A stretch of 64,000 nucleotides of DNA, from the UHGV virus genome UHGV-0037395, one strand, 5' to 3'. Source of the stretch: a virus. Positions 45,323-56,445 of the stretch are shown one piece after another. The notes beneath the pieces are model-generated. The model was not told the origin of the DNA, made no database searches, and worked only from the letters and a program-made list of their open reading frames with translations. The number at the start of each line of letters is the position of its first letter. The stretch's first letter is position 1. Both the position numbers and the translations under genes were made by a program.

Positions 45323-45342
45323 CTGTATTTAAGGAAAAAGAA

Positions 45343-45385
45343 AAAGCCCCTGCCGAAAGGTAAGGGGCTTTTGTTTTTGGTTTAG
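45343..45385. terminator. bidirectional terminator between convergent transcripts
   Basis: aaaaagcccctgccgaaaggtaaggggcttttgtttttgg, A/T runs on both sides. Confidence 0.7.
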
Positions 45386-45585
45386 AACCATATACTCTTG
45401 TTACAGCAACCACCCATACGGGAGGCCAATCTTGACTGAAAATCTACTCTAGGGGGCAGGATAAGAGTAGGCTTAAAGGCAAACGGATTGAACGCCGGTA
45501 TTTGCGTAAACATTGCTGGAGAGCAACAACGTGCTACAGGCATTGGGCAGCACGAAACAGATTTTCTGCAACACATAATTCCTCC

Positions 45586-46002
45586 TTAGGAGTTATTACC
45601 ACTATTTTGAGCTTTTGCAATTTGGCTTTGGCAGAAGCTATTAAACTTACCCATAAGTGATACGAGCTGTTTCCCATCCTCTGTCTTTGCGAAGTCTTCG
45701 AAAAGGGCTAGTACTGCCTGTCCTTCCGCAGAAACCTGCGGTTGTTGGGTTTGTTGCTGAACTTGCTGCTGCGGCATCTGTTGCTGCATTTGTTGAGGCA
45801 TTTGCGACTGCCCGCTTATTTGCTGCATCATTTGCATAGGACTCACACTTCCAGGGTTTTGCTGGAGTTGTTGCTGCATCTGTTGCGCTTCTGCTAAACG
45901 CTGTTGCAACTGTTGTAAGTAGGGGTTATCCAGACCCGGAATGGGCTGCTGGGAGCCCATACTTTGATTAAGTCCGTTATTTACAAAACCATATTTACTC
46001 AT
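45586..46002 (-). CDS. Gln-rich hypothetical protein (minus-strand island)
   Basis: 138 aa. Low-complexity Q/M/P repeats flanked by ordered N- and C-termini. Confidence 0.45.
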   Translation of the reverse strand: MSKYGFVNNGLNQSMGSQQPIPGLDNPYLQQLQQRLAEAQQMQQQLQQNPGSVSPMQMMQQISGQSQMPQQMQQQMPQQQVQQQTQQPQVSAEGQAVLALFEDFAKTEDGKQLVSLMGKFNSFCQSQIAKAQNSGNNS

Positions 46003-46023
46003 AATGGGCTCCTCCCCTTAATA

Positions 46024-47016
46024 TTAAGCCGGCAGTTTAGCCTGCAGACCAGCCAGAGTCTGAGTGATAGCACCAAGACTTAAAGCGATTTGATTAATTA
46101 CCTGACCGTTAGCACCGCTACCCGCAGCGATTGCTTCACGTAGGCGACATGCATCTAACTCATCCTGGATACGCGCAGTAGTTACACCAGCGATCGCAGT
46201 CTGAAGTTCACAGCAACATTCAGCGATCTGACGTTCCAGAGAGTTCTGGTTAGCACACATCTGAGCCTGAACAGCGGCAAACTGGTTATTAGTTTGTAAA
46301 GTCTGCTGGAAAGCGATCTGTGCAGAATCAAACTTATCTTGTGCACGAGCTATCTGGTTAGCTGCGAAAGATTGATCAATCTGGCGAGAAAGATCGAACT
46401 GACCCTGAATAACGTTGCGGGTTTCCTGGCAGATCTGATTAGACAGATTAGCACCTGTACCATAGATCGTAGTTAGTACAGACTGAGTATCACGACTCTG
46501 GTTTTGGGATGTCTGGCTAAAACCATTGTTAACTGCGCTTAAAACAGCTCCAGTACCCTGGTTAGCTTCTGTACGGGTAGTGTTGATAGCTGCTAGAATA
46601 CTAGCGGTATCTTGGTTCTGAAGTACTGCATCAACTGCGGTACCTTCACCAACTACACCACGTCCACCGAATCCACCGAAACCACCGAATCCGCCTGTTA
46701 ATAGAGCACCGATTAGGATAGCTCCGAATAGCCCCATACCTTCACCACCGAAAGCACCTACGTTTGCTGGGTAACCACCTAGTAGGCCAGGGAAGCCATT
46801 AGTAAATACGTTTACTGGTTCTTGCATTTTATGTTTTCCATATTTATGACAATGTTCATCATCGTCATCTTCATCGTCTTCATCATCGTGTTCACGATGT
46901 TTTTCTTCGTAGGCTCTGACCTTCTCCCACTTTTTCTTATCTGATTCCTCGTGACGGTGCAGTTCTGCCGCAACGCTAGAGACGGTCTCAGGACTCTTAG
47001 CTACTTCTTCTGTCAT
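46024..47016 (-). CDS. hypothetical protein with acidic DE-rich block, glycine-zipper membrane segment and Q/N/A/T-rich C-terminal half
   Basis: Start at MTEEVAK with AGGAGGTG SD. GLFGAILIGALLTGGFGGFGGFGG segment. Confidence 0.5.
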   Translation of the reverse strand: MTEEVAKSPETVSSVAAELHRHEESDKKKWEKVRAYEEKHREHDDEDDEDDDDEHCHKYGKHKMQEPVNVFTNGFPGLLGGYPANVGAFGGEGMGLFGAILIGALLTGGFGGFGGFGGRGVVGEGTAVDAVLQNQDTASILAAINTTRTEANQGTGAVLSAVNNGFSQTSQNQSRDTQSVLTTIYGTGANLSNQICQETRNVIQGQFDLSRQIDQSFAANQIARAQDKFDSAQIAFQQTLQTNNQFAAVQAQMCANQNSLERQIAECCCELQTAIAGVTTARIQDELDACRLREAIAAGSGANGQVINQIALSLGAITQTLAGLQAKLPA

Positions 47017-47078
47017 TTTTTGACACCTCCTAGTATATAGAAAATATGTGTCTCTTTGATCACTCATCCATAACATAT

Positions 47079-47107
47079 ACTTTACACTACCCCAGCGAAA
47101 ATGTCAA
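47079..47107 (-). promoter_or_regulatory. promoter for the minus-strand island (TTGACA / 17 / TAAAGT)
   Basis: Reverse complement ccacTTGACAttttcgctggggtagtgTAAAGTatatg. Confidence 0.5.
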
Positions 47108-47222
47108 GTGGTCTTTAAAAATTGCCCCCGGATTTTTAGTGGGGTCACAAATTTTGGTCCTCACCACTTATCTGCTACCCTTAAGCGCCCTATGATTTTC
47201 CTCTAAAAAGTTAAAAAATTTG

Positions 47223-47251
47223 ATTGCTTGAATGCTAAATTCTCTGTATAA
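47223..47251 (+). promoter_or_regulatory. early promoter (TTGCTT / 17 / TATAAT)
   Basis: gaTTGCTTgaatgctaaattctctgTATAAT. Confidence 0.75.
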
Positions 47252-47282
47252 TATATCTATAAATTTGAGAGAGGAACCAAAT

Positions 47283-47801
47283 ATGAATGTTGATGAGCTA
47301 ACACAGCACCTCTTATCTAGGGGATTTGATGTAGATAAATATCATTGCTGGTTAAGTCCAGAAGGGTGGCTAACAGTCCCGTTGTATGACTTCTCTGGGA
47401 TGTTGAGAGGCTATCAGACTTATAATCCTTCTGCTCCAAAAGGGCATGGTAAGTGCCCCTTTGAAGCTAAATATTTTACCTATTCTACTACACAGTGTGT
47501 ATGGGGACTAGAAACTCTCAATGGAGATGAAAAAGTAGTATTGATTGCTGAATCTGTATTTAAGGCAGTTGCGTTACATAACGCTGGTTATCCAGCCCTG
47601 GCAATGCTGGGTTCTTCTCCAGGAAAAGCCTTATTAAAGCAACTGAAATTATTACCTTTTAAATTGGTAGCTGTCGGGGACAACGATCCTGCGGGTGAAA
47701 AATTTGCTAGAAAATTAAATGGATTTGTTTCTCCTGTAGATGTGGATGAGATGTCTACCGAAAACTTGAAAAATTTTCTTGCTATGAAGCTAAATTTCTA
47801 A
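47283..47801 (+). CDS. TOPRIM-domain protein
   Basis: LIAESVFKAVAL (Glu) and AVGDNDPAG (DxD) TOPRIM motifs. Start at MNVDEL after GAGAGGAACC. Confidence 0.55.
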   Translation: MNVDELTQHLLSRGFDVDKYHCWLSPEGWLTVPLYDFSGMLRGYQTYNPSAPKGHGKCPFEAKYFTYSTTQCVWGLETLNGDEKVVLIAESVFKAVALHNAGYPALAMLGSSPGKALLKQLKLLPFKLVAVGDNDPAGEKFARKLNGFVSPVDVDEMSTENLKNFLAMKLNF

Positions 47802-47807
47802 TATAAT
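47779..47807 (+). promoter_or_regulatory. early promoter (TTGCTA / 17 / TATAAT) embedded in the 3' end of the TOPRIM gene, heading a tRNA pair
   Basis: ttcTTGCTAtgaagctaaatttctaaTATAAT. Confidence 0.65.
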
Positions 47808-47822
47808 ATATCTTATAAATTC

Positions 47823-47911
47823 GGAAGAATAGCATAACGGTATTGCAGCAGATTGCTAATCTGTCGGTTTGAAATATAGCCTTGTGGGTTCGATTCCCAC
47901 TTCTTCCGCCA
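47823..47911 (+). tRNA. tRNA-Ser (anticodon GCT), class II
   Basis: Acceptor GGAAGAA/TTCTTCC, anticodon loop TTGCTAA, long variable arm, GTGGG TTCGATT CCCAC, CCA encoded. Confidence 0.75.
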
Positions 47912-47917
47912 GATTTT

Positions 47918-47995
47918 GGTTCTCAAGCTCATATGGTATGAGCACCCGGCTCATAACCGGAAGGTACGTAGGTTCGAATCCTCGGGGAGCCACCA
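47918..47995 (+). tRNA. tRNA-Met/Ile2-type (anticodon CAT)
   Basis: D-arm GCTC/GAGC, anticodon stem CCCGG/CCGG(A), loop CTCATAA, TTCGAAT loop, CCA. The T-stem pairs poorly, so the score would be modest. Confidence 0.5.
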
Positions 47996-48015
47996 ACTTA
48001 ATTAGGGGATTACAA

Positions 48016-48204
48016 GTGGATCTATATATAGTTTATGTTGTGTTTATCCAAGATAGAGAATACCCGGATGAATATAAAAAAGGATATAGATTAGCCAGAG
48101 CTACCTCTGAAGCCCAAGCTATGGATAAAGTGGCAGATTATATGATTACGGTAGAAAACGTACACTATATCGACTACCTTGAAGCCTCAAAAGTAATTGA
48201 CTAA
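48016..48204 (+). CDS. hypothetical small protein (GTG start)
   Basis: The longer ORF-track call overlaps two tRNAs. The shortest version starts at the GTG after AGGGGA. Confidence 0.3.
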   Translation: MDLYIVYVVFIQDREYPDEYKKGYRLARATSEAQAMDKVADYMITVENVHYIDYLEASKVID

Positions 48205-48213
48205 GGAGACTAT

Positions 48214-48399
48214 ATGTCTAAGTTTCAAGAACTCAAGCAAGAGCTAGAAGAATGTGCCTGCCCTGGGTGTAGGGGGATCGGTGAAAGTTCTGATGCAGAA
48301 GCAGGAGATACTTTTTGCAATATCTGGGTTTGCCCAAATTGCAAGGGTACAGGTATTAATCCTAGCTGTGCTATTTCTCTAGATATTGAAAGAGGATAA
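48214..48399 (+). CDS. small zinc-ribbon protein
   Basis: CPGC...CPNC paired CxxC motifs. 61 aa. Confidence 0.45.
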   Translation: MSKFQELKQELEECACPGCRGIGESSDAEAGDTFCNIWVCPNCKGTGINPSCAISLDIERG

Positions 48400-48500
48400 T
48401 ACCTGTGAAACTAAAAGATTATTATATTGGTTGGTTTGTGGGACTAGTAGTAGGATTTTCACTAGGCTATAATATGTATCAACTAATAAACTGATTACAT

Positions 48501-48577
48501 GGGGGTGTAATCGAATTGGCATAGGTACTGGACTTAAAATTCAGGTTTTGTGGGTTCGAATCCCACCACCCCTACCA
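48501..48577 (+). tRNA. class-I tRNA with anticodon TAA (Leu-decoding by anticodon, but short variable arm)
   Basis: Acceptor GGGGGTG/CACCCCT, anticodon stem CTGGA/TTCAG, loop CTTAAAA, GTGGG TTCGAAT CCCAC, CCA encoded. Confidence 0.55.
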
Positions 48578-48752
48578 ACTTAAGGAAATAAGATGTATAG
48601 ACATCCACCTCCGCCAACACGTCGTTCTAGGGAAGTCATCCTTATGGAATTGACTAAAAACTTCAAGGCAACTCTTGAAGATAGAGATCTAGGCACGGAT
48701 GAAGACATTGATTTTATTTGTAGACTATTAAAGATGAAACTGGAGAAACAAC

Positions 48753-48959
48753 ATGGCTAATCCTGAAATTACCGCACAACGTTTCATGCTTAAAGGCATG
48801 ATTGCTGAGGCAGGTATGACTCAAGAGGTTGCAGACTTTCATAAGCAATTTCTTGATATTATAACTCTAGCTAAAGAGACAGGAGAAAGAGAACACGGAG
48901 CAGCAATTATGGCTATATCTCTTATTAGCCTAGACTTAGCTGAAGAATCTGGAGTTTAG
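48753..48959 (+). CDS. hypothetical protein
   Basis: 68-aa ORF. Confidence 0.4.
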   Translation: MANPEITAQRFMLKGMIAEAGMTQEVADFHKQFLDIITLAKETGEREHGAAIMAISLISLDLAEESGV

Positions 48960-48990
48960 CTCCTCCAAACAGAATTTTTAAAAATGTACT

Positions 48991-49020
48991 TGCCTTTTGC
49001 TTTAAATTTCTGGTATAATA
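48991..49020 (+). promoter_or_regulatory. early promoter (TTGCCT / 18 / TATAAT)
   Basis: tacTTGCCTtttgctttaaatttctggTATAAT. Confidence 0.65.
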
Positions 49021-49049
49021 GTTATATAAATTGATGAAGGAGTTAACGA

Positions 49050-49325
49050 ATGCAAAATCGTGTTATAGCAACTGGTATTGAAAGTGCAATCTGTAAATCC
49101 TGGGAAGGCTGGGAAGGTGAGATTGAATGGCTTTATTTCTACGATGTAGAACTTCTGCCGGAAGTTAAAGCTAAATGTGTTGAAGCTGGCATGGCTCCAG
49201 ATGCAAAAGCTGATATTGATATTTCAATGTCTGAACTTAAAGGTCGTGTAATTACTGTTAGTGATGAGGGCGAAGAAGTTTTCGAACTTCCATTCTCCTT
49301 AACTGTCGCTCCTAAGTTCGACTAA
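49050..49325 (+). CDS. hypothetical protein
   Basis: 91-aa ORF. SD AAGGAG. Confidence 0.45.
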   Translation: MQNRVIATGIESAICKSWEGWEGEIEWLYFYDVELLPEVKAKCVEAGMAPDAKADIDISMSELKGRVITVSDEGEEVFELPFSLTVAPKFD

Positions 49326-49361
49326 CTAATACAGCACTGAGCAAGTTCTTTAAAATTTGAC

Positions 49362-49390
49362 TTGCTCAGTGCCATAAAACTTGATATAAT
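49362..49390 (+). promoter_or_regulatory. early promoter (TTGCTC / 17 / TATAAT) heading a tRNA cluster
   Basis: tttgacTTGCTCagtgccataaaacttgaTATAAT. Confidence 0.7.
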
Positions 49391-49453
49391 AGTTATCTAA
49401 TTTGGAAACATATCTAAAAGTGTTTAAACTAGTATTTGAATACTTTTAAATAT

Positions 49454-49544
49454 GTTGGATTAGTATCGTAGAGGTAGCGAAGCAGACTGTAAATCTGCCG
49501 ACTCGGAAGGGTCTCGGGTGGTTCGACTCCATCATCCAACACCA
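49454..49544 (+). tRNA. tRNA-Tyr (anticodon GTA), class II
   Basis: Perfect acceptor GTTGGAT/ATCCAAC, loop CTGTAAA, long variable arm, CCA encoded. Confidence 0.75.
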
Positions 49545-49551
49545 AATTTAA

Positions 49552-49628
49552 GTCCTGTTAGACAAACTGGTAAAGTCACTACCCTTTCAAGGTAGGATTT
49601 GCGGGTTCGATCCCCGCACAGGACGCCA
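49552..49628 (+). tRNA. tRNA-Glu (anticodon TTC)
   Basis: Acceptor GTCCTGT/ACAGGAC, anticodon stem CTACC/GGTAG, loop CTTTCAA, GCGGG TTCGATC CCCGC, CCA. Confidence 0.75.
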
Positions 49629-49636
49629 ATTTCTGC

Positions 49637-49713
49637 ATTCCTAGAGTGTTACTGGACAGCATGTCGGTCTCCAAAACCGTACGGTCTAGGTTCGAGTCCT
49701 AGTAGGTTTGCCA
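49637..49713 (+). tRNA. possible tRNA-Trp (anticodon CCA) with weak acceptor and D stems
   Basis: Perfect T-arm CTAGG TTCGAGT CCTAG, anticodon loop CTCCAAA, CCA end. The acceptor has two U-U pairs. Confidence 0.4.
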
Positions 49714-49719
49714 AAATTT

Positions 49720-49794
49720 GCACCTTTAGCTGAGATGGATTAGCGCTTGCCTGAAGAGCTTGAGAGGTTCGTTCGATACGAACAGGGTGCACCA
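49720..49794 (+). tRNA. tRNA-Phe (anticodon GAA) with mismatched anticodon stem
   Basis: Acceptor GCACCTT/AGGGTGC, D-stem GCTG/TAGC, loop CTGAAGA, GTTCG TTCGATA CGAAC, CCA. Confidence 0.55.
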
Positions 49795-49796
49795 AA

Positions 49797-50084
49797 TTGA
49801 GGGAGCTGCTGATGCATCCTGAAAACTTCTTTATTTACTGCGCGGATAAGTCGCTGAAACGTAGAATTAACAAAGTCTATCATTATCGTGCTAGTCAACA
49901 GCCTTATGTATACGCTTTTGACGGTGATCACATCCCATTAGAACAACTATCTTGTGATTACATGATATTGAAGAACTTTGACGAGACAAAGATCTCAAGC
50001 GTTCATAATCGACAGAATCCCTTAACGTGGAAATATAAGAAGAAAAAGAAAGGCATCAAATTCTTAAAAAATGTAGTTGCTTAG
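49797..50084 (+). CDS. hypothetical protein
   Basis: 95-aa ORF starting right after the tRNA. Confidence 0.4.
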   Translation: MRELLMHPENFFIYCADKSLKRRINKVYHYRASQQPYVYAFDGDHIPLEQLSCDYMILKNFDETKISSVHNRQNPLTWKYKKKKKGIKFLKNVVA

Positions 50085-50104
50085 TTTCCAAAAGTTCTGT
50101 ATAA
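50076..50104 (+). promoter_or_regulatory. early promoter (TTGCTT / 17 / TATAAT)
   Basis: gtagTTGCTTagtttccaaaagttctgTATAAT. Confidence 0.7.
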
Positions 50105-50133
50105 TAATTACATAAATTGAACTGGAGAAGCAA

Positions 50134-50325
50134 ATGAAACGATTAGTTAGATTTAAGTGTTGTGGTTCTGAACATATTTTCACACATCTTCGTGAATTTA
50201 AAATGTGTGATTGTGGTAAATCAGGCTATGACTCAGGAGATGGGTTCTACATCCGTACTCTAGGGAACTTCAATGATCTAGAATTTGAAGATCTCGAAAA
50301 ACAATATAAACCGACCGTTGGCTGA
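50134..50325 (+). CDS. small Cys-rich protein (zinc-binding)
   Basis: CCGSEH...CDCG motif. Its last 14 nt overlap the tRNA-Cys 5' end. Confidence 0.4.
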   Translation: MKRLVRFKCCGSEHIFTHLREFKMCDCGKSGYDSGDGFYIRTLGNFNDLEFEDLEKQYKPTVG

Positions 50326-50387
50326 ATGGCTTAGGCGAAGGATTGCAAATCCTTTTTATGTGAGTTCAAATCTCATGCGGTCGTCCA
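50312..50387 (+). tRNA. tRNA-Cys (anticodon GCA)
   Basis: Acceptor CGACCGT/GCGGTCG, perfect anticodon stem AAGGA/TCCTT, loop TTGCAAA, U73 discriminator, CCA. Confidence 0.75.
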
Positions 50388-50388
50388 A

Positions 50389-50529
50389 TTTGCTGAAAGA
50401 ATTGTTAAATCAATTCAGGCACGCGTAGGAACACTGTCTCCGTAATTGAAAGATGAGGCACGGTTTGGAGAGGTATGCCGCTACACGCTACGGTGCTAAC
50501 TCCGTCTAGGTGAAAATCCTAGTCAGCAA
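50389..50529 (+). ncRNA. ~140-nt tRNA-like RNA: T-arm and CCA-less acceptor helix closed by a perfect 7-bp long-range stem
   Basis: TTGCTGA (50389-95) pairs perfectly with TCAGCAA (50522-28). Internal CTAGG TGAAAAT CCTAG hairpin. Confidence 0.3.
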
Positions 50530-50539
50530 TACAAATTCA

Positions 50540-50622
50540 GGGTCGTTAGCCAAGCGGTTTGGCGGTGGACTGTTAATCCATGTCGAAAGACAACGTAGGT
50601 TCGAATCCTACACGGCCCGCCA
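50540..50622 (+). tRNA. class-II-length tRNA, anticodon probably GTT (unusual for a long-arm tRNA)
   Basis: Acceptor GGGTCGT/ACGGCCC, D-stem GCCA/TGGC, stem GTGGA/TCCAT with loop CTGTTAA, 13-nt variable arm, CCA. Confidence 0.5.
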
Positions 50623-50724
50623 AATTCTGTGTAGAGTTAAGTAAACCGGTAGCCAACCAGCTATCATTGCTGACATCGAATTCAGCCACAGATACCATTT
50701 TCATTAATAACTGAGGAAACAAGC

Positions 50725-50910
50725 ATGTCCAAGAATGTAATTGCGCAGCTAGAAGTTCATCGTGATAGCACTCTCAACAATATTGAAGTTGAGAAGAAAT
50801 ACATCGAAGAACTTAAACATGATATACTAGTAAGTCTCAATCGTCTTAATGTACGAAAAGAGTTTCTTAAAGAACTTAATGCAGCTATTGAAAAACTCAA
50901 AGCTGAATAA
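50725..50910 (+). CDS. hypothetical coiled-coil protein
   Basis: 61-aa ORF. Confidence 0.4.
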   Translation: MSKNVIAQLEVHRDSTLNNIEVEKKYIEELKHDILVSLNRLNVRKEFLKELNAAIEKLKAE

Positions 50911-50919
50911 ATGAATTAT

Positions 50920-50996
50920 GCGACCGGGGCTGGCTTGGTAATGGTACTCCCCTGTCACGGGAGGGAATGTGGGTTCAAATCCCATCGGTCGCGCCA
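50920..50996 (+). tRNA. tRNA-Asp (anticodon GTC)
   Basis: Perfect acceptor GCGACCG/CGGTCGC, stem CTCCC/GGGAG, loop CTGTCAC, CCA. Confidence 0.75.
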
Positions 50997-51072
50997 ATTT
51001 TTGCAGGACGCTGGTATAGATAACCACCGCGTGGGAAGTATCTATATTTAGAGCACTGCAAAGCATAATAAT

Positions 51073-51148
51073 ACATCCATAGCTCAATGGTTAGAGCTAC
51101 CGCCTCTTAAGCGGAGGGTTCTAGGTTCAAGTCCTAGTGGGTGTACCA
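51073..51148 (+). tRNA. tRNA-Lys-like (anticodon CTT)
   Basis: Acceptor ACATCCA/TGGGTGT, D-arm GCTC AATGGTTAG AGC, loop CTCTTAA, CTAGG TTCAAGT CCTAG, CCA. Confidence 0.6.
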
Positions 51149-51149
51149 A

Positions 51150-51600
51150 ATTTAAAGAGTAAAGGCTACAGTAGGTGCACCCTTACGGACTGCTACACCG
51201 GACTCTTTAAACAAAATTTCAGTGCAGAACACGGAGCTAGCAATTCGGAAGTGCTGACTCATGATAAGCTGCCTATGTACTTGCAAAGCGGTCGTGTCCA
51301 AGACTCGGACTCTTGCACTGAAAACAATCAAACATTCTAGCGTGGTTGATGGGGAAACCAGCTTGGCTAGGGCAGAAGCTCGTTCGATTCGAGTGAAAGA
51401 ATGGTTCTCGTAAGTCCGCACAAGTGATAGCAGGTTCGAGTCCTGTCTAGAATGATACTATAAAGTTTACTTATTGAGTAGGTTCCGATAGATCGGCGGG
51501 TCTATTCTGGCAGTTAAGAGAGGTCTCGCAAACTTCTTTGTCAGCCGTGGGGTTGGTAGCCTCCAGGTGGCCTACACAATAAGTAAATTTATTAAAAATT
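51150..51600 (+). ncRNA. non-coding stretch with long-range helices and several degenerate tRNA-like minihelices
   Basis: Long-range inverted repeats AAAGAGT/ACTCTTT (51155-51210) and CAGTGCAG/CTTGCACTG (51215-51320). Three CCA-less T-arm-like hairpins: GCTCG TTCGATT CGAGT, GCAGG TTCGAGT CCTGT and TGG GTTGGTA GCC. Two overlapping ORF calls on opposite strands here are judged spurious. Confidence 0.35.
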
Positions 51601-51603
51601 CAT

Positions 51604-51632
51604 TTGCTATTTCGCTTAATTCTCGGTATAAT
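51604..51632 (+). promoter_or_regulatory. early promoter (TTGCTA / 17 / TATAAT)
   Basis: catTTGCTAtttcgcttaattctcggTATAAT. Confidence 0.75.
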
Positions 51633-51664
51633 ATATCTTATAAAGTGTTGAGAAGGAAAGCAAA

Positions 51665-51862
51665 ATGAAAAAAGTTTTACTGCTGTCTGTATTCCTACTT
51701 ACTGGTTGTTTTAAACTTGACTCAACCATTAATAAAGAGTATGAATTTGCTAAAAATTTCTGTGGCGGAGAGAGTAATATAAAGAATTTCTACATATATA
51801 GTACAATTCCTAGTACCGTTTATTGTGTAGACGGACGAATTATTAATATTCCTCCACAATAA
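51665..51862 (+). CDS. small lipoprotein (signal peptide plus LTGC lipobox)
   Basis: MKKVLLLSVFLLTGC. 65 aa. Confidence 0.5.
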   Translation: MKKVLLLSVFLLTGCFKLDSTINKEYEFAKNFCGGESNIKNFYIYSTIPSTVYCVDGRIINIPPQ

Positions 51863-51872
51863 AAGAATTAAC

Positions 51873-51948
51873 AGTGCGTAGCGCAGTTGGTAGCGTGGGA
51901 GCCTTGGATGCTTCGGGTCGCAGGTTCGAGTCCTGCCGCACTGACCAA
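51873..51948 (+). tRNA. tRNA-Pro (anticodon TGG)
   Basis: Acceptor CAGTGCG/CGCACTG, D-arm GCGC AGTTGGTA GCGT, stem GGAGC/GCTTC, loop CTTGGAT, CCA. Confidence 0.75.
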
Positions 51949-51954
51949 ACAATT

Positions 51955-52032
51955 GCGGGTTAGATCTCTGGTAGAGATCGCTAGTCTCATAAGCTAGAAA
52001 GAGGTAGGTTCGATTCCTGCACCCGCTTCCAT
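51955..52032 (+). ncRNA. aberrant tRNA-like gene (6-bp D-hairpin, 9-nt anticodon loop TCTCATAAG, U-U at acceptor 1-72)
   Basis: T-arm GTAGG TTCGATT CCTGC and a CCA end are present, but the anticodon arm cannot be folded canonically. Confidence 0.35.
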
Positions 52033-52051
52033 TTTAATAGAGGATTTCGAA

Positions 52052-52219
52052 ATGAAAGTATTTCGATTAGTAGTAAGTGACAAACGTTTAGGTAAGAATA
52101 CCTCAAAATCCTTACTTGCTCATTATGGAAAAGATGAGAAAGAAGTAATGGTAGAATTTAATACTAATCACCCTTACTTGAAAGTTCACTCTATTAAAGA
52201 AGTATATAATGGTTACTAA
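52052..52219 (+). CDS. small hypothetical protein (55 aa)
   Basis: ATG after GGATTTCGAA, between two tRNA-type genes. Below the ORF-track cutoff. Confidence 0.3.
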   Translation: MKVFRLVVSDKRLGKNTSKSLLAHYGKDEKEVMVEFNTNHPYLKVHSIKEVYNGY

Positions 52220-52220
52220 T

Positions 52221-52299
52221 AGATCGCTAGCTCAATAGGTTTAGTAGCATCCGACTTTTAATCGGAAGGTTCTGGGTTCGAGTCCCAGGCGATCTACCA
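52221..52299 (+). tRNA. tRNA-Lys (anticodon TTT)
   Basis: Perfect acceptor AGATCGC/GCGATCT, stem TCCGA/TCGGA, loop CTTTTAA, CTGGG TTCGAGT CCCAG, CCA. Confidence 0.75.
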
Positions 52300-52317
52300 A
52301 TTTCAAGAAAAACGCAG

Positions 52318-52346
52318 TTGCTTGATGCTTAATTTCTTGTTATAAT
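52318..52346 (+). promoter_or_regulatory. early promoter (TTGCTT / 17 / TATAAT)
   Basis: cagTTGCTTgatgcttaatttcttgtTATAAT. Confidence 0.75.
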
Positions 52347-52391
52347 ATTTATATAAATTGATGAGGAGAAATCCTCATCATATTTCACTAA

Positions 52392-52563
52392 GGTATTAGC
52401 TCGACCTAGGACTGGCTGCCAAAAAGCACGATCCCTACGATTCGGGAGAAGTTCTAGATTGGTCCACTAGATTCAGCGGCAACTGAATAGTGTATCGGGT
52501 TTGCGAGATTACGCAGTTCCTTCCGCTCGAAGCGAAGGTGCTGTAGTTACGCCGAGCTAATAG
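52392..52563 (+). ncRNA. ~170-nt structured non-coding RNA closed by an 8-bp long-range stem
   Basis: TTAGCTCG (52396-52403) pairs with CGAGCTAA (52551-52558). Internal hairpins include TCTAG...CTAGA and CCTTCCGC TCGAA GCGAAGG. Sits between a promoter and tRNA-Ala. Confidence 0.4.
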
Positions 52564-52584
52564 CCTTAGTAAACTAAAGAATTT

Positions 52585-52659
52585 GGGCGAATAGTGTCAG
52601 TGGGAGCACACCAGACTTGCAATCTGGTAGGGAGGGTTCGAGTCCCTCTTTGTCCACCA
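52585..52659 (+). tRNA. tRNA-Ala (anticodon TGC)
   Basis: Acceptor GGGCGAA/TTTGTCC with G3-U70, stem CCAGA/TCTGG, loop CTTGCAA, GAGGG TTCGAGT CCCTC, CCA. Confidence 0.75.
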
Positions 52660-52677
52660 AATTAAAGGGTATGTAGT

Positions 52678-53178
52678 ATGAAGGTAGCTAAAAATGGGAG
52701 AAAAGATAACTTAAATGAGTTAGAAATATTCCTCCACAATAACAAACTAGATGTAACCCCTAGTAATTACATGCAAATAGCTCTATGGTATAATGGGTAT
52801 ATAGTTAGAAAGGCCAATCCTAGTAAGGATAAGAAGTCAAATACATATCAAAAGAGACTAGAGCATAGCTATCAAAGATCCCTAAGAGTAGTACAGCTTT
52901 ATTGTTATATCAATAATATAAATAATAAGCTGGGATATATTTATATAATATCTAACCCAGCTTTTCCAGGCTGGTTTAAAGTAGGGGCAGCCAAAGATGC
53001 TGAAACTAGATTAAATACCTATCAAACATATTCCCCTTTTCGAGACTATGTATTAGAGTATTATAAACTAGTAGATAATTATGAACTCAAAGAAAAAGAA
53101 ATCCTAAGTTCTTTTTCATCTAGAAATAATGAGTGGGTTCATGCTCCACTTGAAGAAATAATTGCTTGCGTGGCGTAA
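52678..53178 (+). CDS. T5orf172-domain (GIY-YIG-like) protein
   Basis: GYIYIISNP...GWFKVGAAKDAETRLNTYQTYSP matches the T5orf172/MUG113 domain pattern. Its 3' end overlaps the tRNA-Leu 5' end. Confidence 0.6.
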   Translation: MKVAKNGRKDNLNELEIFLHNNKLDVTPSNYMQIALWYNGYIVRKANPSKDKKSNTYQKRLEHSYQRSLRVVQLYCYINNINNKLGYIYIISNPAFPGWFKVGAAKDAETRLNTYQTYSPFRDYVLEYYKLVDNYELKEKEILSSFSSRNNEWVHAPLEEIIACVA

Positions 53179-53246
53179 TTGGTAGACGCGCGATCCTTAG
53201 GAGTTCGTGTTAATTCGTGTGGGTTCGAGTCCCTCCGCAAGCACCA
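53164..53246 (+). tRNA. tRNA-Leu (anticodon TAG), class II
   Basis: Perfect acceptor GCTTGCG/CGCAAGC, D-arm GCGT AATTGGTAG ACGC, loop CTTAGGA, 13-nt variable arm, CCA. Confidence 0.7.
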
Positions 53247-53340
53247 AATTTGATGGTCATAGTAAATTAAACCTACTATCTCGGTTGAGCTGTTTTAATG
53301 GGTTCGAATCCCAGCGAGGCGTAACTGCCTGGTGTGATAG
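53247..53340 (+). ncRNA. tRNA-like minihelix (T-arm TGGG TTCGAAT CCCA flanked by a 4-bp CTCG/CGAG stem) without D or anticodon arms
   Basis: Direct reading of the sequence. No CCA. The ORF call over it is judged spurious. Confidence 0.3.
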
Positions 53341-53358
53341 AGGCATCATCTTATTATT

Positions 53359-53449
53359 GGAAGAGCAAATCGAATTGGCGACGAAAACCGCTTGGAAAGT
53401 GGCTGACTGGTAAAACGGCTTGAGAGTTCAAATCTCTCCTCTTCCGCCA
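53359..53449 (+). tRNA. tRNA-Ser (anticodon GGA), class II
   Basis: Perfect acceptor GGAAGAG/CTCTTCC, 3-bp D-stem, loop TTGGAAA, long variable arm, GAGAG TTCAAAT CTCTC, CCA. Confidence 0.65.
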
Positions 53450-53461
53450 AACAATTTATAT

Positions 53462-53556
53462 GGTAGGTCAATCCAATGGCTGGCGCTGGACTCCGACTTG
53501 AAATCGGTTGATCGTAGTGATACGGTGTAAGGGTTCGATCCCCTTACCTACCTCCA
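53462..53556 (+). tRNA. tRNA-Ser (anticodon TGA), class II
   Basis: Perfect acceptor GGTAGGT/ACCTACC, stem (T)CCGA/TCGG(T), loop CTTGAAA, long variable arm, AAGGG TTCGATC CCCTT, CCA. Confidence 0.65.
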
Positions 53557-53720
53557 AATCTTGAAGTATGCCGGAATCGGTAGACGGGGCTGCCTAAAAG
53601 GTTTACAGGGAACATCCACTCCCCGCAACATACCTCATAAAGCGGCTGAGATAAATGGTCTATCTCGTGAAGGTTCAAGTCCTTCTGCTTCTTGATACAT
53701 CTATGGCTCAAAGTGTAACG
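53557..53720 (+). ncRNA. non-coding stretch with a D-arm-like and a T-arm-like hairpin but no complete tRNA
   Basis: AGAT AAATGGTCT ATCT hairpin and GAAGG TTCAAGT CCTTC hairpin. No acceptor complement and no CCA. Confidence 0.3.
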
Positions 53721-53922
53721 GTGCTATTTGATGCTCTTAGTAAGACTTTCCCGACATGCGTTCGGGAGTAAGCTGCTAAGACTAGAGTAGAAGAGTTTCG
53801 GAGAGCCGCCACAAGTGAAAATTCGTACTCGTCTTGAGCTGCGTGTAATAGGAGATAACTTGATTAGTATTCTAGAACATGCTAATTGAGGAAGGTTTCG
53901 CTAACCCTGCGAGTTTTCAATT

Positions 53923-53999
53923 GTGGCTATATCATAATTGGTTAATGATCCTGATTGTGAATCAGGCCTATGTGGATTCGAATTCCACTAGCCACCCCA
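53923..53999 (+). tRNA. tRNA-His (anticodon GTG)
   Basis: Perfect acceptor GTGGCTA/TAGCCAC, D-arm TCAT AATTGGTTA ATGA, stem CCTGA/TCAGG, loop TTGTGAA, CCA. Confidence 0.75.
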
Positions 54000-54024
54000 A
54001 ATTAACTTAAATAGGAAATAAAAT

Positions 54025-54219
54025 ATGGCTGATTTCTGCAAACAATGCTCCATTGATATGTGGGGCAGAGATACTGGTGATCTTTCTGGTTTGATTACAG
54101 AAGCTGAAGTTAAAGAAGGCTATGGTGCTGTTGTGATTTGCGAGGGATGCGGAGTTATTCGAGTAGATCATGAAGGCAAACGTTTAGAAGAATCTGAGCC
54201 AACAACAATTTTTCCGTAG
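54025..54219 (+). CDS. small Cys-rich protein
   Basis: CKQC...CEGCG motifs. 64 aa. Confidence 0.4.
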   Translation: MADFCKQCSIDMWGRDTGDLSGLITEAEVKEGYGAVVICEGCGVIRVDHEGKRLEESEPTTIFP

Positions 54220-54230
54220 AATAAAATTAT

Positions 54231-54306
54231 TGGGATGTAGATCAATTGGCAGATCGTCGGTTTCTGACATCGAAGGTTCCTGGTTCGATCCCAGGTACTC
54301 CAGCCA
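54231..54306 (+). tRNA. tRNA-Gln (anticodon CTG)
   Basis: D-arm GATC AATTGGCA GATC, stem TCGGT/ATCGA, loop TTCTGAC, CCTGG TTCGATC CCAGG, CCA. One A-C pair in the acceptor. Confidence 0.7.
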
Positions 54307-54312
54307 AACAAT

Positions 54313-54387
54313 TGGAAAGTAGTGTAATGGTTAGCACTGGAGATTTTGAATCTCTTAGTTAGGGTTCGAATCCCTACTTTCCTGCCA
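54313..54387 (+). tRNA. tRNA-Gln (anticodon TTG)
   Basis: D-arm GTGT AATGGTTA GCAC, stem GGAGA/TCTCT, loop TTTTGAA, TAGGG TTCGAAT CCCTA, CCA. U-U at 1-72. Confidence 0.65.
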
Positions 54388-54393
54388 ATTTAT

Positions 54394-54468
54394 GCGTGAT
54401 TAGTTCAGTGGCTAGAATAACTGGCTTCCAACCAGTAGACACGAGTTCGACTCTCGTATCCCGCACCA
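54394..54468 (+). tRNA. tRNA-Gly (anticodon TCC)
   Basis: Stem ACTGG/CCAGT perfect, loop CTTCCAA, ACGAG TTCGACT CTCGT, CCA. Confidence 0.7.
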
Positions 54469-54485
54469 ATTTTTAAGGGGACATT

Positions 54486-54737
54486 ATGCACGTTTTTGAG
54501 TTCCGTAATAAAAGTACTGATAAACGAGTTATTGTTATCGGAGAAACATACCGAGCATACGAACAAACTGACGGCTCTGTTATCCTGAATGACGAGAAAG
54601 GAGGTTTTAGCTTTTATCCAGAAGAACCTTATGAAGAGTTTCGAAAACAATTTAACCTAGACTGGAGAAAGCATTTAAACACTGTTGCTTCATCTGTAGT
54701 ATTGCCAACTACCAGTACTGTACTCTCTAATGGCTGA
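54486..54737 (+). CDS. hypothetical protein
   Basis: 83-aa ORF with GGGGACATT SD. Confidence 0.45.
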   Translation: MHVFEFRNKSTDKRVIVIGETYRAYEQTDGSVILNDEKGGFSFYPEEPYEEFRKQFNLDWRKHLNTVASSVVLPTTSTVLSNG

Positions 54738-54903
54738 TAACCTAAAAATTAAGATAGACAAACAAAAGAAACGTGTAGAAGTAGAGATTGGTGAAGAACG
54801 TGTTGCCTTTACTTTTGAATTTCTACAACAAATGGCAATGACAGTCATGGCTGATAAGTCTCCTGTTATTGAAAAAGAAATCCCGTTGAAATAACGGGCT
54901 ATC

Positions 54904-54978
54904 GCTCCTAAAGCATTGTTGGCGATGCAGTTGCCTTGTAAGCATCTGAACCGGGTTCGATTCCTGGTGGGAGCACCA
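54904..54978 (+). tRNA. tRNA-Thr (anticodon TGT)
   Basis: Perfect acceptor GCTCCTA/TGGGAGC, D-arm GCAT TGTTGGCG ATGC, loop CTTGTAA, CCGGG TTCGATT CCTGG, CCA. Confidence 0.75.
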
Positions 54979-54993
54979 AATTTAAAAATTCAT

Positions 54994-55022
54994 TTGCTTT
55001 CTCTCTTATTTATTGTTATAAT
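54994..55022 (+). promoter_or_regulatory. early promoter (TTGCTT / 17 / TATAAT)
   Basis: catTTGCTTtctctcttatttattgtTATAAT. Confidence 0.75.
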
Positions 55023-55052
55023 ATTTATATAAATTAATGAGAGGGAAGCCAA

Positions 55053-55346
55053 ATGAAACGTTATCTTTCTGTTGTGTTCCAAACTGGTGGTCAACGCTAT
55101 ACTTACGAATTTCCTGGCTCTTGGAAAATCAAAGAAGGTGATCAAGTAGTTGTACTAACACCGCGTGATGGGTACAAGGTAGTAACGGTTAAGCAAGTCT
55201 TTCCAAAAGATCATGAACTAGCTAAAGGCATTCGCTATAGGATGATTCATGGTGTAGTTCGTCAAGTACCACGGGCGGAAGTCGAAATCAAAGTAGATAA
55301 AGATGGTAAACTTAAATATACCTCTTGCTTAGACGAGTTGCTATAA
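55053..55346 (+). CDS. hypothetical protein
   Basis: 97-aa ORF. SD GAGGGAAG. Confidence 0.45.
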   Translation: MKRYLSVVFQTGGQRYTYEFPGSWKIKEGDQVVVLTPRDGYKVVTVKQVFPKDHELAKGIRYRMIHGVVRQVPRAEVEIKVDKDGKLKYTSCLDELL

Positions 55347-55552
55347 TGAGGATTACTTTTACAGAAAAGATCATGAGTAATGGTGTTATGATCATTACCG
55401 CATGGGACGGTAATCAGTGGTGTAGTGTTTCAGGTATTAAGCCTGAAGAACAAACACTAGAAAATATCTCAAAGATTAAGCGAAGAATGGCAGAACGTGC
55501 ACGACTTCCAGGTGCACCTAGAAATGGCAAACGTTCTGCTGTGAAATGTTAA
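55325..55552 (+). CDS. hypothetical protein
   Basis: 75-aa ORF ending 2 nt before tRNA-Ile. Confidence 0.4.
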   Translation: MLRRVAIMRITFTEKIMSNGVMIITAWDGNQWCSVSGIKPEEQTLENISKIKRRMAERARLPGAPRNGKRSAVKC

Positions 55553-55553
55553 T

Positions 55554-55630
55554 GCTTCGGTAGCTTAGCGATCTAAAGCACTCGGCTGATAACCGAGAGA
55601 TCGGGGGTTTAAATCCCTCCCGGAGTACCA
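55554..55630 (+). tRNA. tRNA-Ile (anticodon GAT)
   Basis: Perfect anticodon stem CTCGG/CCGAG, loop CTGATAA, D-stem GCTT/AAGC, GGGGG TTTAAAT CCCTC, CCA. Confidence 0.75.
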
Positions 55631-55726
55631 AATTTAGGAATTAAGACTATGCGTCCAGGAAAGTTTAAAAAAGCTAATTGGTCTAAAGAGTATAAAGAAT
55701 ACTTACTTAGTCTAGTAAAACATAAT

Positions 55727-55802
55727 AGTTAGTTGGCAGAGTGGTTATGCACCTCCTTCATACGGAGTGACTACAGTGGTTCAAATCCACTACTAACTAC
55801 CA
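55727..55802 (+). tRNA. tRNA-Met-type (anticodon CAT), second CAT tRNA
   Basis: Perfect acceptor AGTTAGT/ACTAACT, loop TTCATAC, AGTGG TTCAAAT CCACT, CCA. Confidence 0.7.
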
Positions 55803-56034: not shown

Positions 56035-56076
56035 AGAATAAATAGCTGAGCCAAATTCTAACATCGGGGAGATCTA

Positions 56077-56445
56077 ATGAAAGCATATCAAAACCTTAAA
56101 TCTGGCGTAATTAATATTGTTCATAATAATCAGATCATTCAGCTATATTCCGATAATGGTGAACTTAAACAGAAAGTTCTAGTTGAAGATCTAGAAGGTA
56201 TCACACCTCACTTTGACCCTGAGGCCTTTCGCATTGTAGATGTGGAAGTGGTTCCTCAAATCGAAGGTGGTCAGCACCTAAATGTCAATGTATTAAGCCG
56301 TGATCAGCTTTTGGATGCGCAGAAACATCCTGAAAAATATCCTCAGTTGACCATTCGTGTCTCTGGCTATGCTGTACGTTTTAATGCACTGACGCGTGAA
56401 CAACAGAACGACGTTATTAGTCGTACATTTACTCAGGCGATGTAA
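56077..56445 (+). CDS. GrcA/YfiD-like autonomous glycyl-radical cofactor protein
   Basis: C-terminal [31 protein letters not shown] is the glycyl-radical domain signature (RVSGY) of the PFL C-terminus / GrcA. 122 aa, the size of stand-alone GrcA. Confidence 0.8.

What the first reader, a model, noticed from the sequence alone, without database searches (positions are those of the whole stretch)
56077..56445. Stand-alone GrcA/YfiD-like glycyl-radical spare-part protein in the tRNA region of a phage that also encodes NrdD
The C-terminus carries the RVSGYAVRF glycyl-radical signature. In E. coli, GrcA replaces the oxygen-cleaved C-terminus of pyruvate formate-lyase. The same window encodes NrdD (28200-30074), a glycyl-radical enzyme clipped at the equivalent glycine by oxygen, but no nrdG activase was found. 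A phage GrcA could rescue host PFL, or conceivably NrdD, during microaerobic infection.
Basis: partly seen in the sequence, partly recalled or inferred. Interest (0 to 1): 0.55.

Follow-up and report, generated by a model that had tools for sequence, protein, structure and literature searches.

The report
Phage copy of PFL spare-part protein GrcA
This T5-like phage gene encodes a small "spare-part" protein that most likely repairs the host's oxygen-damaged pyruvate formate-lyase; the same kind of protein was shown to do this in phage T4 in 2001, so the finding is real but ordinary.

Summary
Window 56077-56445 (+) is a 122-aa ORF with a good ribosome-binding site. It carries RVSGYAVRF at aa 94-102, and Gly97 aligns with the radical glycine of PflB (G734) and GrcA (G102).

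The window is a T5-like phage (Demerecviridae, Tequintavirus). An identical protein is in GenBank (phage Es2). Orthologues in T5 and DT57C are already annotated "putative autonomous glycyl radical cofactor GrcA".

The C-terminal 62 aa are 77-82% identical to the E. coli GrcA, PflB and TdcE C-termini. The N-terminal half is diverged, but profile comparison links it to other phage GrcAs and through them to bacterial GrcA. The gene is under strong purifying selection (dN/dS 0.07), and 1,583 phage records hold a homologue. One of these is T4 vs.6, apparently the Y06I protein that reconstituted oxygen-cleaved PFL in vitro.

The NrdD idea is not supported. The phage NrdD has the class III loop RVCGYLG behind a zinc ribbon and shows no similarity to this protein. 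By published work, PFL activase accepts RVSGYAV but not RVCGYLG. No activase is encoded in the window or in a complete relative, so the protein must rely on host PflA.

Verdict: already known, low interest.

The parts
56066..56071 (+). Shine-Dalgarno-like GGGGAG, 5 nt upstream of the ATG
   Evidence: Read directly from the sequence.
56077..56445 (+). CDS of the phage GrcA-like protein (122 aa plus stop)
   Evidence: ORF list; phrog_1209 full length E=5e-47; 100% identical protein in phage Es2 and 93-97% in other T5-like phages; dN/dS 0.07 over 31 distinct alleles.
56077..56256 (+). N-terminal half (aa 1-60): diverged, phage-type GrcA N-terminal region. By analogy with YfiD it is likely the part that helps dock onto damaged PFL.
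   Evidence: hhalign against other phage N-termini: Prob 94.5%, E=8e-8 over aa 1-62. Those N-termini against bacterial GrcA N-termini: Prob 99.4%, E=6e-22. The direct match to bacterial GrcA covers only aa 50-62. dN/dS 0.11. AF2 predicts beta strands with pLDDT 82-89, and does the same for a bacterial GrcA control. The role of YfiD residues 1-60 comes from PMC8683613.
56257..56442 (+). C-terminal PFL-type glycyl-radical domain (aa 61-122)
   Evidence: Pfam PF01228 aa 63-103. Aligns to PflB 698-759 and YfiD 53-126. Identity: TdcE 82%, PflB 79%, GrcA 77%. Foldseek top hit 6owr, TM 0.75 on the target. dN/dS 0.016.
56356..56376 (+). Gly loop RVSGYAV (aa 94-100). The Gly97 codon at 56365-56367 is the predicted radical site.
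   Evidence: R94 V95 S96 G97 Y98 A99 are invariant in 74 homologues. The loop is identical to that of PflB, TdcE and GrcA. RVSGYAV is the heptapeptide that PFL-AE activates (PMC13450708, section 2.5).
44210..55802 (+). Context only: array of 23 tRNA genes ending 275 nt upstream of the gene
   Evidence: ARAGORN. In 29 of 30 T5-like loci the nearest upstream tRNA ends 14-619 nt before the gene; none was found in the short flank held for the other.
28200..30074 (-). Context only: phage NrdD (class III ribonucleotide reductase), not a partner of this protein
   Evidence: 624 aa, 54% identical to E. coli NrdD, C-terminus ...CGKCG...CPICG...RRVCGYLG. No similarity to the GrcA-like protein.

Best explanation

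Proposed mechanism:
1. The phage encodes no activase, so the host activase PflA, using S-adenosylmethionine, abstracts a hydrogen from Gly97 in the RVSGYAV loop.
2. The C-terminal domain copies the last 62 residues of pyruvate formate-lyase. It inserts into a host PFL molecule (PflB, possibly also TdcE) whose own glycyl-radical domain was cut off by oxygen or is inactive.
3. It hands the radical to the catalytic cysteine pair, and pyruvate is again converted to acetyl-CoA and formate.
4. By analogy with YfiD, the diverged N-terminal half helps binding to damaged PFL.

Why the phage carries it is inference. T5-type phages shut off host gene expression (established knowledge of T5 biology, not tested here), so the host could not replace PFL or GrcA. 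A phage-supplied spare part would keep fermentative ATP and acetyl-CoA supply running during infection in fluctuating low-oxygen gut conditions.

Shown here: homology, motif, fold, selection and absence of a phage activase. Shown elsewhere, for T4 Y06I and E. coli YfiD only: radical installation by PflA and reconstitution of cleaved PFL. Inferred: that the T5-type protein does the same, and that this benefits the phage.
For: - Pfam Gly_radical E=4e-18. The best NCBIfam hits are the three GrcA models, then PFL.
- PDB phmmer: YfiD 6owr E=2.8e-29, PFL E=6e-27.
- The C-terminal 62 aa are 77-85% identical to GrcA, PflB, TdcE and other phage GrcAs, with an identical [10 protein letters not shown] loop. 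29 columns are invariant in 74 homologues, including the whole loop.
- The AF2 model's best structural match is the YfiD NMR structure, then PFL.
- Full-length homology (51-52% identity) to T4 and T4-like vs.6, which is annotated GrcA. Literature: E. coli YfiD and T4 Y06I are the two biochemically validated PFL spare parts (PMC8683613).
- N-terminal homology is transitive, through other phage GrcAs to bacterial GrcA.
- Purifying selection on both halves (dN/dS 0.11 and 0.016). 1,583 phage records hold a homologue.
- No NrdG or PflA homologue in the window or in the complete Es2 genome, whereas E. coli K-12 encodes pflA, pflB, tdcE and grcA.
- PFL-AE activates TdcE, whose Gly loop is also RVSGYAV, and the RVSGYAV peptide (PMC13450708).
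Against: - No experiment exists for the T5-type protein.
- Its N-terminal half is the most diverged in the family, and its direct profile match to bacterial GrcA covers only aa 50-62.
- It scores below the curated cutoffs of all three NCBIfam GrcA models (118.9 against 170). The T4-like vs.6 control also falls below (153.3), so this is weak counter-evidence.
- AF2 confidence is moderate (pLDDT 76, pTM 0.42) and the 61-72 linker is below 50.
- The benefit to the phage is untested, and no open-access paper was found that discusses the gene in T5-like phages.
Confidence: 0.8

Rival explanations
1. It is a spare part for the phage's own anaerobic ribonucleotide reductase NrdD, replacing the C-terminal piece lost when oxygen cleaves NrdD at its glycyl radical.
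For: NrdD is encoded in the same genome and no phage activase is present. NrdD-like and GrcA-like genes are each found in roughly 400-450 T5-like records, by counts only. Reviews state that spare parts for glycyl-radical enzymes other than PFL have not been found but are conceivable (PMC8683613, PMC13450708).
Against: - No sequence similarity between the two proteins (E=3.5 and E=38).
- NrdD's loop is RVCGYLG behind a CxxC...CxxC zinc ribbon that the small protein lacks.
- The small protein is 77-82% identical to the PFL-family C-termini, and its model matches YfiD and PFL, with no NrdD in the top 50.
- PFL-AE activates RVSGYAV but not RVCGYLG peptides, so loop sequence sets activase specificity (PMC13450708, section 2.5).
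- The gene is 26 kb from nrdD here. It is not adjacent to nrdD or nrdG in T4-likes or in any of 35 viral loci examined.
Confidence: 0.02
2. It acts on intact but non-radical PFL, or on TdcE, rather than specifically on oxygen-cleaved PflB. In this reading it is a mobile radical donor that raises total formate-lyase activity after host shut-off, independent of oxygen damage.
For: - The C-terminus is slightly closer to TdcE (82%) than to PflB (79%) or GrcA (77%).
- PflA activates TdcE, which has the same loop (PMC13450708).
- E. coli GrcA restores activity to a full-length inactive PflB G734A variant in vivo (PMC12338860 and the Kammel and Sawers 2022 paper listed as ref. 112 in PMC13450708).
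Against: The identity differences are only 2-3 residues in 62 and cannot discriminate targets. This is a variant of the main explanation rather than a true alternative.
Confidence: 0.12
3. It is a decoy that soaks up host PflA activity or the radical pool, lowering host PFL flux instead of restoring it.
For: It carries a perfect PflA substrate loop. Its N-terminal half is diverged from the bacterial region implicated in PFL binding.
Against: - T4 Y06I reconstitutes PFL activity in vitro (PMC8683613).
- The whole PFL-contacting C-terminal domain is under very strong purifying selection, not just the loop (dN/dS 0.016; 29 invariant columns). That is more than a decoy loop would need.
Confidence: 0.04
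4. It is a non-functional remnant of a captured host pflB, tdcE or grcA 3' end. Many GenBank records label it 'pyruvate formate-lyase'.
For: Only the last 62 residues of PFL are matched. Records carry inconsistent product names.
Against: - The ORF is intact and the same length in all 33 T5-like gene copies compared, with dN/dS 0.07 despite dS 0.38.
- GC is 0.40, matching the phage (0.39), and third-codon-position identity to host genes is only 42-53%, so the gene has long been resident in the phage.
- The N-terminal half is conserved across phage families.
Confidence: 0.01

Closest known systems
Bacteriophage T4 Y06I, apparently gene vs.6 (NP_049730.1), autonomous glycyl radical cofactor
   Same: A stand-alone phage protein of about 120 aa starting MKAYQ, with full-length alignment at 51% identity. 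It has the same [10 protein letters not shown] loop and the same phage-type N-terminal half. The literature reports radical installation by PFL-AE and reconstitution of oxygen-cleaved PFL for Y06I (PMC8683613).
   Different: The N-terminal half is only about 29% identical. The T4-type C-terminus is 97% (protein) and 96% (DNA) identical to E. coli grcA, indicating recent exchange with the host. The T5-type gene is 70-75% identical in DNA to any host paralogue. T4 also encodes its own NrdG; T5-like phages encode no activase (the T4 nrdG statement is from general knowledge). The T5-type protein has not been tested. That Y06I and vs.6 are the same gene is my inference: vs.6 is the GrcA homologue annotated in T4, and T4-like records show one place each.
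E. coli GrcA/YfiD (P68066; PDB 6OWR)
   Same: C-terminal domain is 77% identical over 62 aa. It is the best PDB hit by sequence and by fold. Overall size and two-part layout are the same. AF2 predicts a similar N-terminal beta region in both.
   Different: The direct profile match of the N-terminal halves is limited to aa 50-62. The phage protein scores below the TIGR04365 cutoff (118.9 against 170; E. coli GrcA scores 234). It has the phage signature Gln in 'DAQ' (72 of 88 phage-type proteins, 0 of 30 bacterial-type). It is phage-encoded, so it is expressed from the phage programme rather than under host stress control (inference).
C-terminal glycyl-radical domain of PflB and TdcE (E. coli)
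   Same: 79% and 82% identity over the last 62 residues, ending ...TFTQAM against TFTQSM and TFTQAL. The best E. coli DNA match is the pflB 3' end, 76.9% over 186 nt.
   Different: It lacks the roughly 700-residue catalytic barrel and the Cys418/Cys419 pair, so it cannot be a formate-lyase on its own. The GenBank labels 'pyruvate formate-lyase' and '2-ketobutyrate formate-lyase' are misnomers.
C-terminal glycyl-radical domain of class III RNR (NrdD)
   Same: Only the R-V-x-G-Y core of the glycine loop, and the general chemistry.
   Different: RVCGYLG against RVSGYAV. NrdD has a zinc ribbon before the loop and no detectable sequence similarity. It uses a different activase, NrdG (PMC13450708).

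Membership tests
GrcA/YfiD autonomous glycyl radical cofactor | Small stand-alone protein (about 120-130 aa) without the glycyl-radical-enzyme catalytic barrel | tested here: met
   122-aa ORF with its own ribosome-binding site and stop codon. Only PflB residues 698-760 are matched.
GrcA/YfiD autonomous glycyl radical cofactor | C-terminal PFL-type glycyl-radical domain with the RVSGYAV loop | tested here: met
   PF01228 at 66.2 bits against a cutoff of 22.2. The loop is invariant in 74 homologues. 77-82% identical to GrcA, PflB and TdcE.
GrcA/YfiD autonomous glycyl radical cofactor | C-terminal domain has the fold of the PFL C-terminus | tested here: met
   AF2 model (pLDDT 76). Foldseek top hits are 6owr YfiD (E=3.7e-6, TM on target 0.75), then PFL 2pfl, 1cm5 and 1mzo. 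This rests on a predicted structure of moderate confidence.
GrcA/YfiD autonomous glycyl radical cofactor | N-terminal half homologous to the GrcA N-terminal region | tested here: inconclusive
   The direct profile match to bacterial GrcA covers only aa 50-62 (Prob 54%). Homology is transitive: T5-type to other phage N-termini Prob 94.5%, and those to bacterial N-termini Prob 99.4%.
GrcA/YfiD autonomous glycyl radical cofactor | Score above the curated NCBIfam cutoff (TIGR04365 170 bits; GrcA3 158; GrcA2 145) | tested here: not met
   Scores are 118.9, 116.4 and 89.9 bits. Controls: T4-like vs.6 also fails (153.3), two other phage homologues score 135-137, and E. coli GrcA passes (234). The models are tuned to bacterial proteins.
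GrcA/YfiD autonomous glycyl radical cofactor | Glycyl radical installed by PFL activase (PflA) | not testable with these tools
   Needs EPR or an oxygen-cleavage assay. Indirect support only: an identical RVSGYAV loop, which PFL-AE activates even as a heptapeptide (PMC13450708).
GrcA/YfiD autonomous glycyl radical cofactor | Restores activity to oxygen-cleaved PFL | not testable with these tools
   Shown only for E. coli YfiD and T4 Y06I (PMC8683613).
Class III RNR (NrdD) glycyl-radical domain or a hypothetical NrdD spare part | RVCGYLG-type loop preceded by a Cys4 zinc ribbon, with similarity to the NrdD C-terminus | tested here: not met
   The loop is RVSGYAV, the protein contains no cysteine at all, and BLASTP against the phage NrdD gives E=3.5.
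Pyruvate / 2-ketobutyrate formate-lyase (as labelled in many GenBank records) | Catalytic barrel of about 750 aa with the Cys418/Cys419 pair | tested here: not met
   The protein is 122 aa. It scores 85.7 bits against a TIGR01255 cutoff of 994, matching only profile positions 683-744.

The most novel reading that the evidence does not exclude
The T5-type protein has the most diverged N-terminal half in the family. It may have been retargeted away from oxygen-cleaved PflB. Possible targets are another host glycyl-radical enzyme (TdcE, PflD or YbiW-type) or, least likely, the phage NrdD. Alternatively it may serve as a phage-controlled radical donor that switches on the never-activated PFL pool after host shut-off. 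Any of these would be the first spare-part protein with a role beyond PflB repair.
Probability: 0.06. Interest if true: 0.6.

Novelty: already known. Interest (0 to 1): 0.18.

Why it matters
This is a clean example of a phage-carried auxiliary metabolic gene that props up host fermentation. It is very widespread: 1,583 phage records across T5-like, T4-like, jumbo and Vibrio/Aeromonas phages. Its benefit to any phage has never been measured.

For this window it adds little. The protein family, its mechanism and its presence in T5-like phages are already on record, and the one novel element proposed, rescue of NrdD, is contradicted by the sequence.

Practical value is a corrected annotation. It is a GrcA-like cofactor, not "pyruvate formate-lyase", "acetyltransferase" or "ribonucleotide reductase subunit".

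Tried and rejected
1. NrdD link. BLASTP of the protein against the phage and E. coli NrdD found nothing, and Foldseek returned no NrdD. Rejected.
2. Hidden activase. tblastn with E. coli NrdG and PflA against the window and the whole Es2 genome found nothing credible (best E=0.2 in the window; no hit at E<=1 in Es2). A CxxxCxxC scan found only a 101-aa Cys-rich ORF (56527-56832, phrog_4499, unknown function, no Pfam hit), which is too small and unlike a radical-SAM enzyme.
3. Functional clues from neighbours. All six flanking ORFs are of unknown function. No nrdD, nrdG, pflA or long pflB hit lies within 4 kb in 35 viral loci.
4. Recent capture from the host. Rejected for the T5 type (70-75% DNA identity, phage-like GC), but true for the 3' half of T4-type vs.6.
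5. A folded N-terminal domain specific to the phage. AF2 predicts a beta sheet (pLDDT 82-89), but the bacterial GrcA control gives the same prediction (pLDDT 85-91) even though YfiD 1-60 is disordered by NMR. This is not a distinguishing feature (PMC8683613).
6. Promoter and terminator scan around the gene. Counts were at or below shuffle expectation and uninformative.
7. Literature on this gene in T5-like phages. Nothing was found in the open-access library. One search call failed on a term that was too short.

Full report
**1. The observation**

Window 56077-56445 (+) is an intact 122-aa ORF. A GGGGAG Shine-Dalgarno-like sequence lies at 56066-56071, 5 nt before the ATG. The protein ends ...[44 protein letters not shown] is aa 94-102 (nt 56356-56382) and the Gly97 codon is at 56365-56367.

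The match to the glycyl-radical domain is far beyond chance:
- Pfam PF01228: E=4.2e-18, 66.2 bits against a gathering score of 22.2.
- The best NCBIfam hits are the three GrcA models, followed by PFL.
- Against the PDB, the best hits are E. coli YfiD/GrcA (6owr, E=2.8e-29, aa 50-121) and E. coli PFL (1h16, E=6e-27, aa 61-122 on PFL 698-759).

- 23 tRNA genes lie at 44210-55802, the last ending 275 nt upstream of the gene.
- A 624-aa NrdD lies at 28200-30074, on the minus strand, 54% identical to E. coli NrdD.
- No NrdG or PflA homologue is in the window (tblastn, best E=0.2).

**2. What the window is**

The 3-kb surroundings are 95-98% identical to many T5-like phages of Salmonella and Escherichia. 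The taxonomy of close relatives is Demerecviridae, Markadamsvirinae, Tequintavirus. Phage Es2 encodes a 100% identical protein, and the window is collinear with Es2 at 94-98% DNA identity.

In DT57C the orthologue is annotated [quoted passage not shown]. Other records call it pyruvate formate-lyase, 2-ketobutyrate formate-lyase, acetyltransferase-related, ribonucleotide reductase subunit or hypothetical protein. A 121,750-bp IMG/VR contig, probably T5 itself, carries it at 95% identity.

**3. Family and distribution**

tblastn finds a homologue in 1,583 phage records:
- about 445 at 80% identity or more (T5-like);
- many T4-like phages at about 50% over the full length;
- jumbo Klebsiella, Escherichia and Salmonella phages;
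- Vibrio, Aeromonas, Yersinia and Proteus phages.

The large protein database returns the same picture, plus bacterial GrcAs of Vibrio, Aliivibrio, Photobacterium, Aeromonas and Pantoea.

In an alignment of 74 homologues, 29 columns are invariant. These include P89[10 protein letters not shown]99, R101-F-N103 and R116-T-F-T119.

Phage-type proteins share a signature Gln in "DAQ" (72 of 88). It is absent from the 30 bacterial-type proteins, which have V, M, I or A there.

**4. The two halves**

*C-terminal half (aa 61-122).* It is 82% identical to the E. coli TdcE C-terminus, 79% to PflB, 77% to GrcA and 79-85% to other phage GrcAs. These differences are too small to name a preferred target.

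*N-terminal half (aa 1-60).* It is diverged.
- The direct profile comparison with bacterial GrcA N-termini aligns only aa 50-62 (Prob 54%).
- It aligns over its whole length with the N-termini of other phage GrcAs (Prob 94.5%, E=8e-8).
- Those in turn match bacterial GrcA N-termini (Prob 99.4%, E=6e-22).

The protein is therefore a full-length but diverged GrcA homologue, not a bare PFL tail.

*Score against curated models.* It falls below the curated cutoff of TIGR04365 (118.9 against 170). The T4-like vs.6 control also falls below it (153.3), while E. coli GrcA passes (234).

**5. Structure**

AF2 with the 74-sequence alignment gives pLDDT 76 and pTM 0.42. The model has beta strands in aa 2-36 and 51-54, a low-confidence linker at 61-72, and a helix, beta-hairpin and helix around the Gly loop.

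Foldseek against the PDB returns YfiD (6owr, E=3.7e-6, TM 0.75 on the target), then PFL (2pfl, 1cm5, 1mzo), then other glycyl-radical enzymes. No NrdD appears in the top 50.

A control model of a bacterial GrcA (Pantoea) shows an equally confident N-terminal beta region (pLDDT 85-91). Yet YfiD residues 1-60 are disordered in solution by NMR (PMC8683613). The predicted N-terminal sheet is therefore a family trait, perhaps reflecting folding on binding. It is not a phage novelty.

**6. Selection and origin**

Across 31 distinct alleles from T5-like phages:

| Region | dN/dS |
|---|---|
| Whole gene | 0.07 (dS 0.38) |
| N-terminal half (aa 1-60) | 0.11 |
| C-terminal half (aa 61-122) | 0.016 |

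Both halves are functional.

The gene's GC content (0.40) equals the window's (0.39). Its last 189 nt are only 70-75% identical to E. coli grcA, pflB or tdcE, with 42-53% identity at third codon positions. This is an old phage-resident lineage.

Its position just after the last tRNA is conserved: in 29 of 30 T5-like loci the nearest upstream tRNA ends 14-619 nt before the gene, and none was found in the short upstream flank held for the other.

**7. Mechanism**

The literature supplies the mechanism for the family.
- E. coli YfiD and T4 Y06I are the two biochemically validated spare-part proteins. PFL activase installs a glycyl radical on them, and they complex with oxygen-cleaved PFL to restore activity (Wagner et al. 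2001, as summarised in PMC8683613 and PMC13450708).
- The YfiD N-terminal half promotes binding to cleaved PFL and radical installation, but it is not needed for catalysis (PMC8683613).
- GrcA also rescues a full-length inactive PflB G734A in vivo (PMC12338860).
- PFL-AE activates an RVSGYAV heptapeptide and TdcE, but not the class III RNR loop peptide RVCGYLG (PMC13450708, section 2.5).

The window protein carries RVSGYAV exactly.

T4 gene vs.6 (NP_049730.1) is annotated GrcA and is 51% identical over the full length to the window protein. T4-like records show one match each, so I take vs.6 to be Y06I. That equivalence is my inference.

No activase is encoded in the window or in the complete Es2 genome. 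E. coli K-12 encodes pflA, pflB, tdcE and grcA, and every one of 5,426 complete E. coli genomes has matches to the 3' half of the gene. The phage protein must therefore use host PflA and host PFL.

The benefit is inference. It would sustain fermentative energy and acetyl-CoA supply in infected cells that can no longer express host genes, under fluctuating oxygen.

**8. The NrdD idea**

The phage NrdD C-terminus is ...CGKCGFLGETIASEDGFKCPICGNHDPETLEVTRRVCGYLGNPGARPFNPGKQHEVMGRVKH. This is a zinc ribbon plus an RVCGYLG loop, nearly identical to E. coli NrdD.

- The small protein has no cysteine and no similarity to NrdD (E=3.5 and 38).
- The two genes are 26 kb apart here.
- The GrcA-like gene is not next to nrdD or nrdG in T4-likes, nor in any of 35 viral loci checked.

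The missing nrdG is explained more simply. The phage NrdD keeps a host-like C-terminus and can presumably be activated by host NrdG (inference).

**9. Verdict**

The item is already known. The mechanism was shown for a T4 homologue in 2001, T5 and DT57C records already carry the GrcA annotation, and an identical protein is in GenBank.

What remains open is modest:
- the T5-type protein itself is untested;
- its N-terminus is the most diverged in the family;
- no phage phenotype has been measured for any phage GrcA.

Noticed in passing
L002:6001-6363 (phage Kha5h vs.6) against L004:2067-2450 (E. coli K-12 grcA); T4 vs.6 at L044:3058-3420: The last 189 nt of T4-type vs.6 are 96.3% identical in DNA to E. 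coli grcA, and 95% identical at third codon positions. Its 5' half is phage-type. This looks like recent gene conversion or recombination between the phage gene and the host grcA. The T5-type gene shows no such exchange (70-75%).
   Followed up: partly
Proteins P0076, P0097, P0098, P0117, P0120: Small metagenome proteins that join a bacterial GrcA N-terminus to a PflB-like C-terminus (...MNREMLLDAMEHPEK...TFTQSM). One cluster has 900 members. They are either short-read assembly chimeras formed through the shared [16 protein letters not shown] stretch, or real grcA/pflB conversions.
   Followed up: no
window 56445-56606 and 56527-56832 (+): The ORF after grcA starts at the ATG that overlaps the grcA stop (TAATG), which suggests translational coupling. 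It overlaps, in another frame, a 101-aa ORF with a Cys cluster TPCICSCWMCGNPRK (phrog_4499, unknown function, no Pfam hit). DT57C annotates both overlapping ORFs, one with '????'. Which of the two is real is unresolved.
   Followed up: partly
window 57378-57659 (+): A 93-aa Cys-rich ORF (CDSCSWWC...CRDCSG) in phrog_2855, of unknown function. It is possibly a small zinc-binding protein.
   Followed up: no
window 30133-30756 (ORF 30268-30759, +): About 620 bp beside nrdD are replaced by about 107 bp in phage Es2 (gap in the blastn tiling). The segment holds a 163-aa ORF that by eye resembles an HNH/AP2-type homing endonuclease. It is likely a mobile insertion. This was not checked against any family library.
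   Followed up: no
window 1-122 aa model m0c54a93fff86 and control model m764dc61e567e: AF2 predicts a confident beta sheet (pLDDT 82-91) for the N-terminal half of both the phage and a bacterial GrcA, although NMR found YfiD 1-60 disordered in solution. This may reflect a conformation adopted only on binding PFL or PflA.
   Followed up: partly
window 13494-19949: The window runs across the arbitrary start and end of the Es2 GenBank record (Es2 105018-107569, then 1-3967). The records are linearised at different points, which is a bookkeeping difference and not a rearrangement.
   Followed up: yes
window 26587-27423 (-): A 278-aa ORF whose Es2 counterpart is annotated as a SIR2-family NAD-dependent deacetylase. 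It lies just upstream of the nrdD block. It is a conserved T5-like gene and was not examined here.
   Followed up: no
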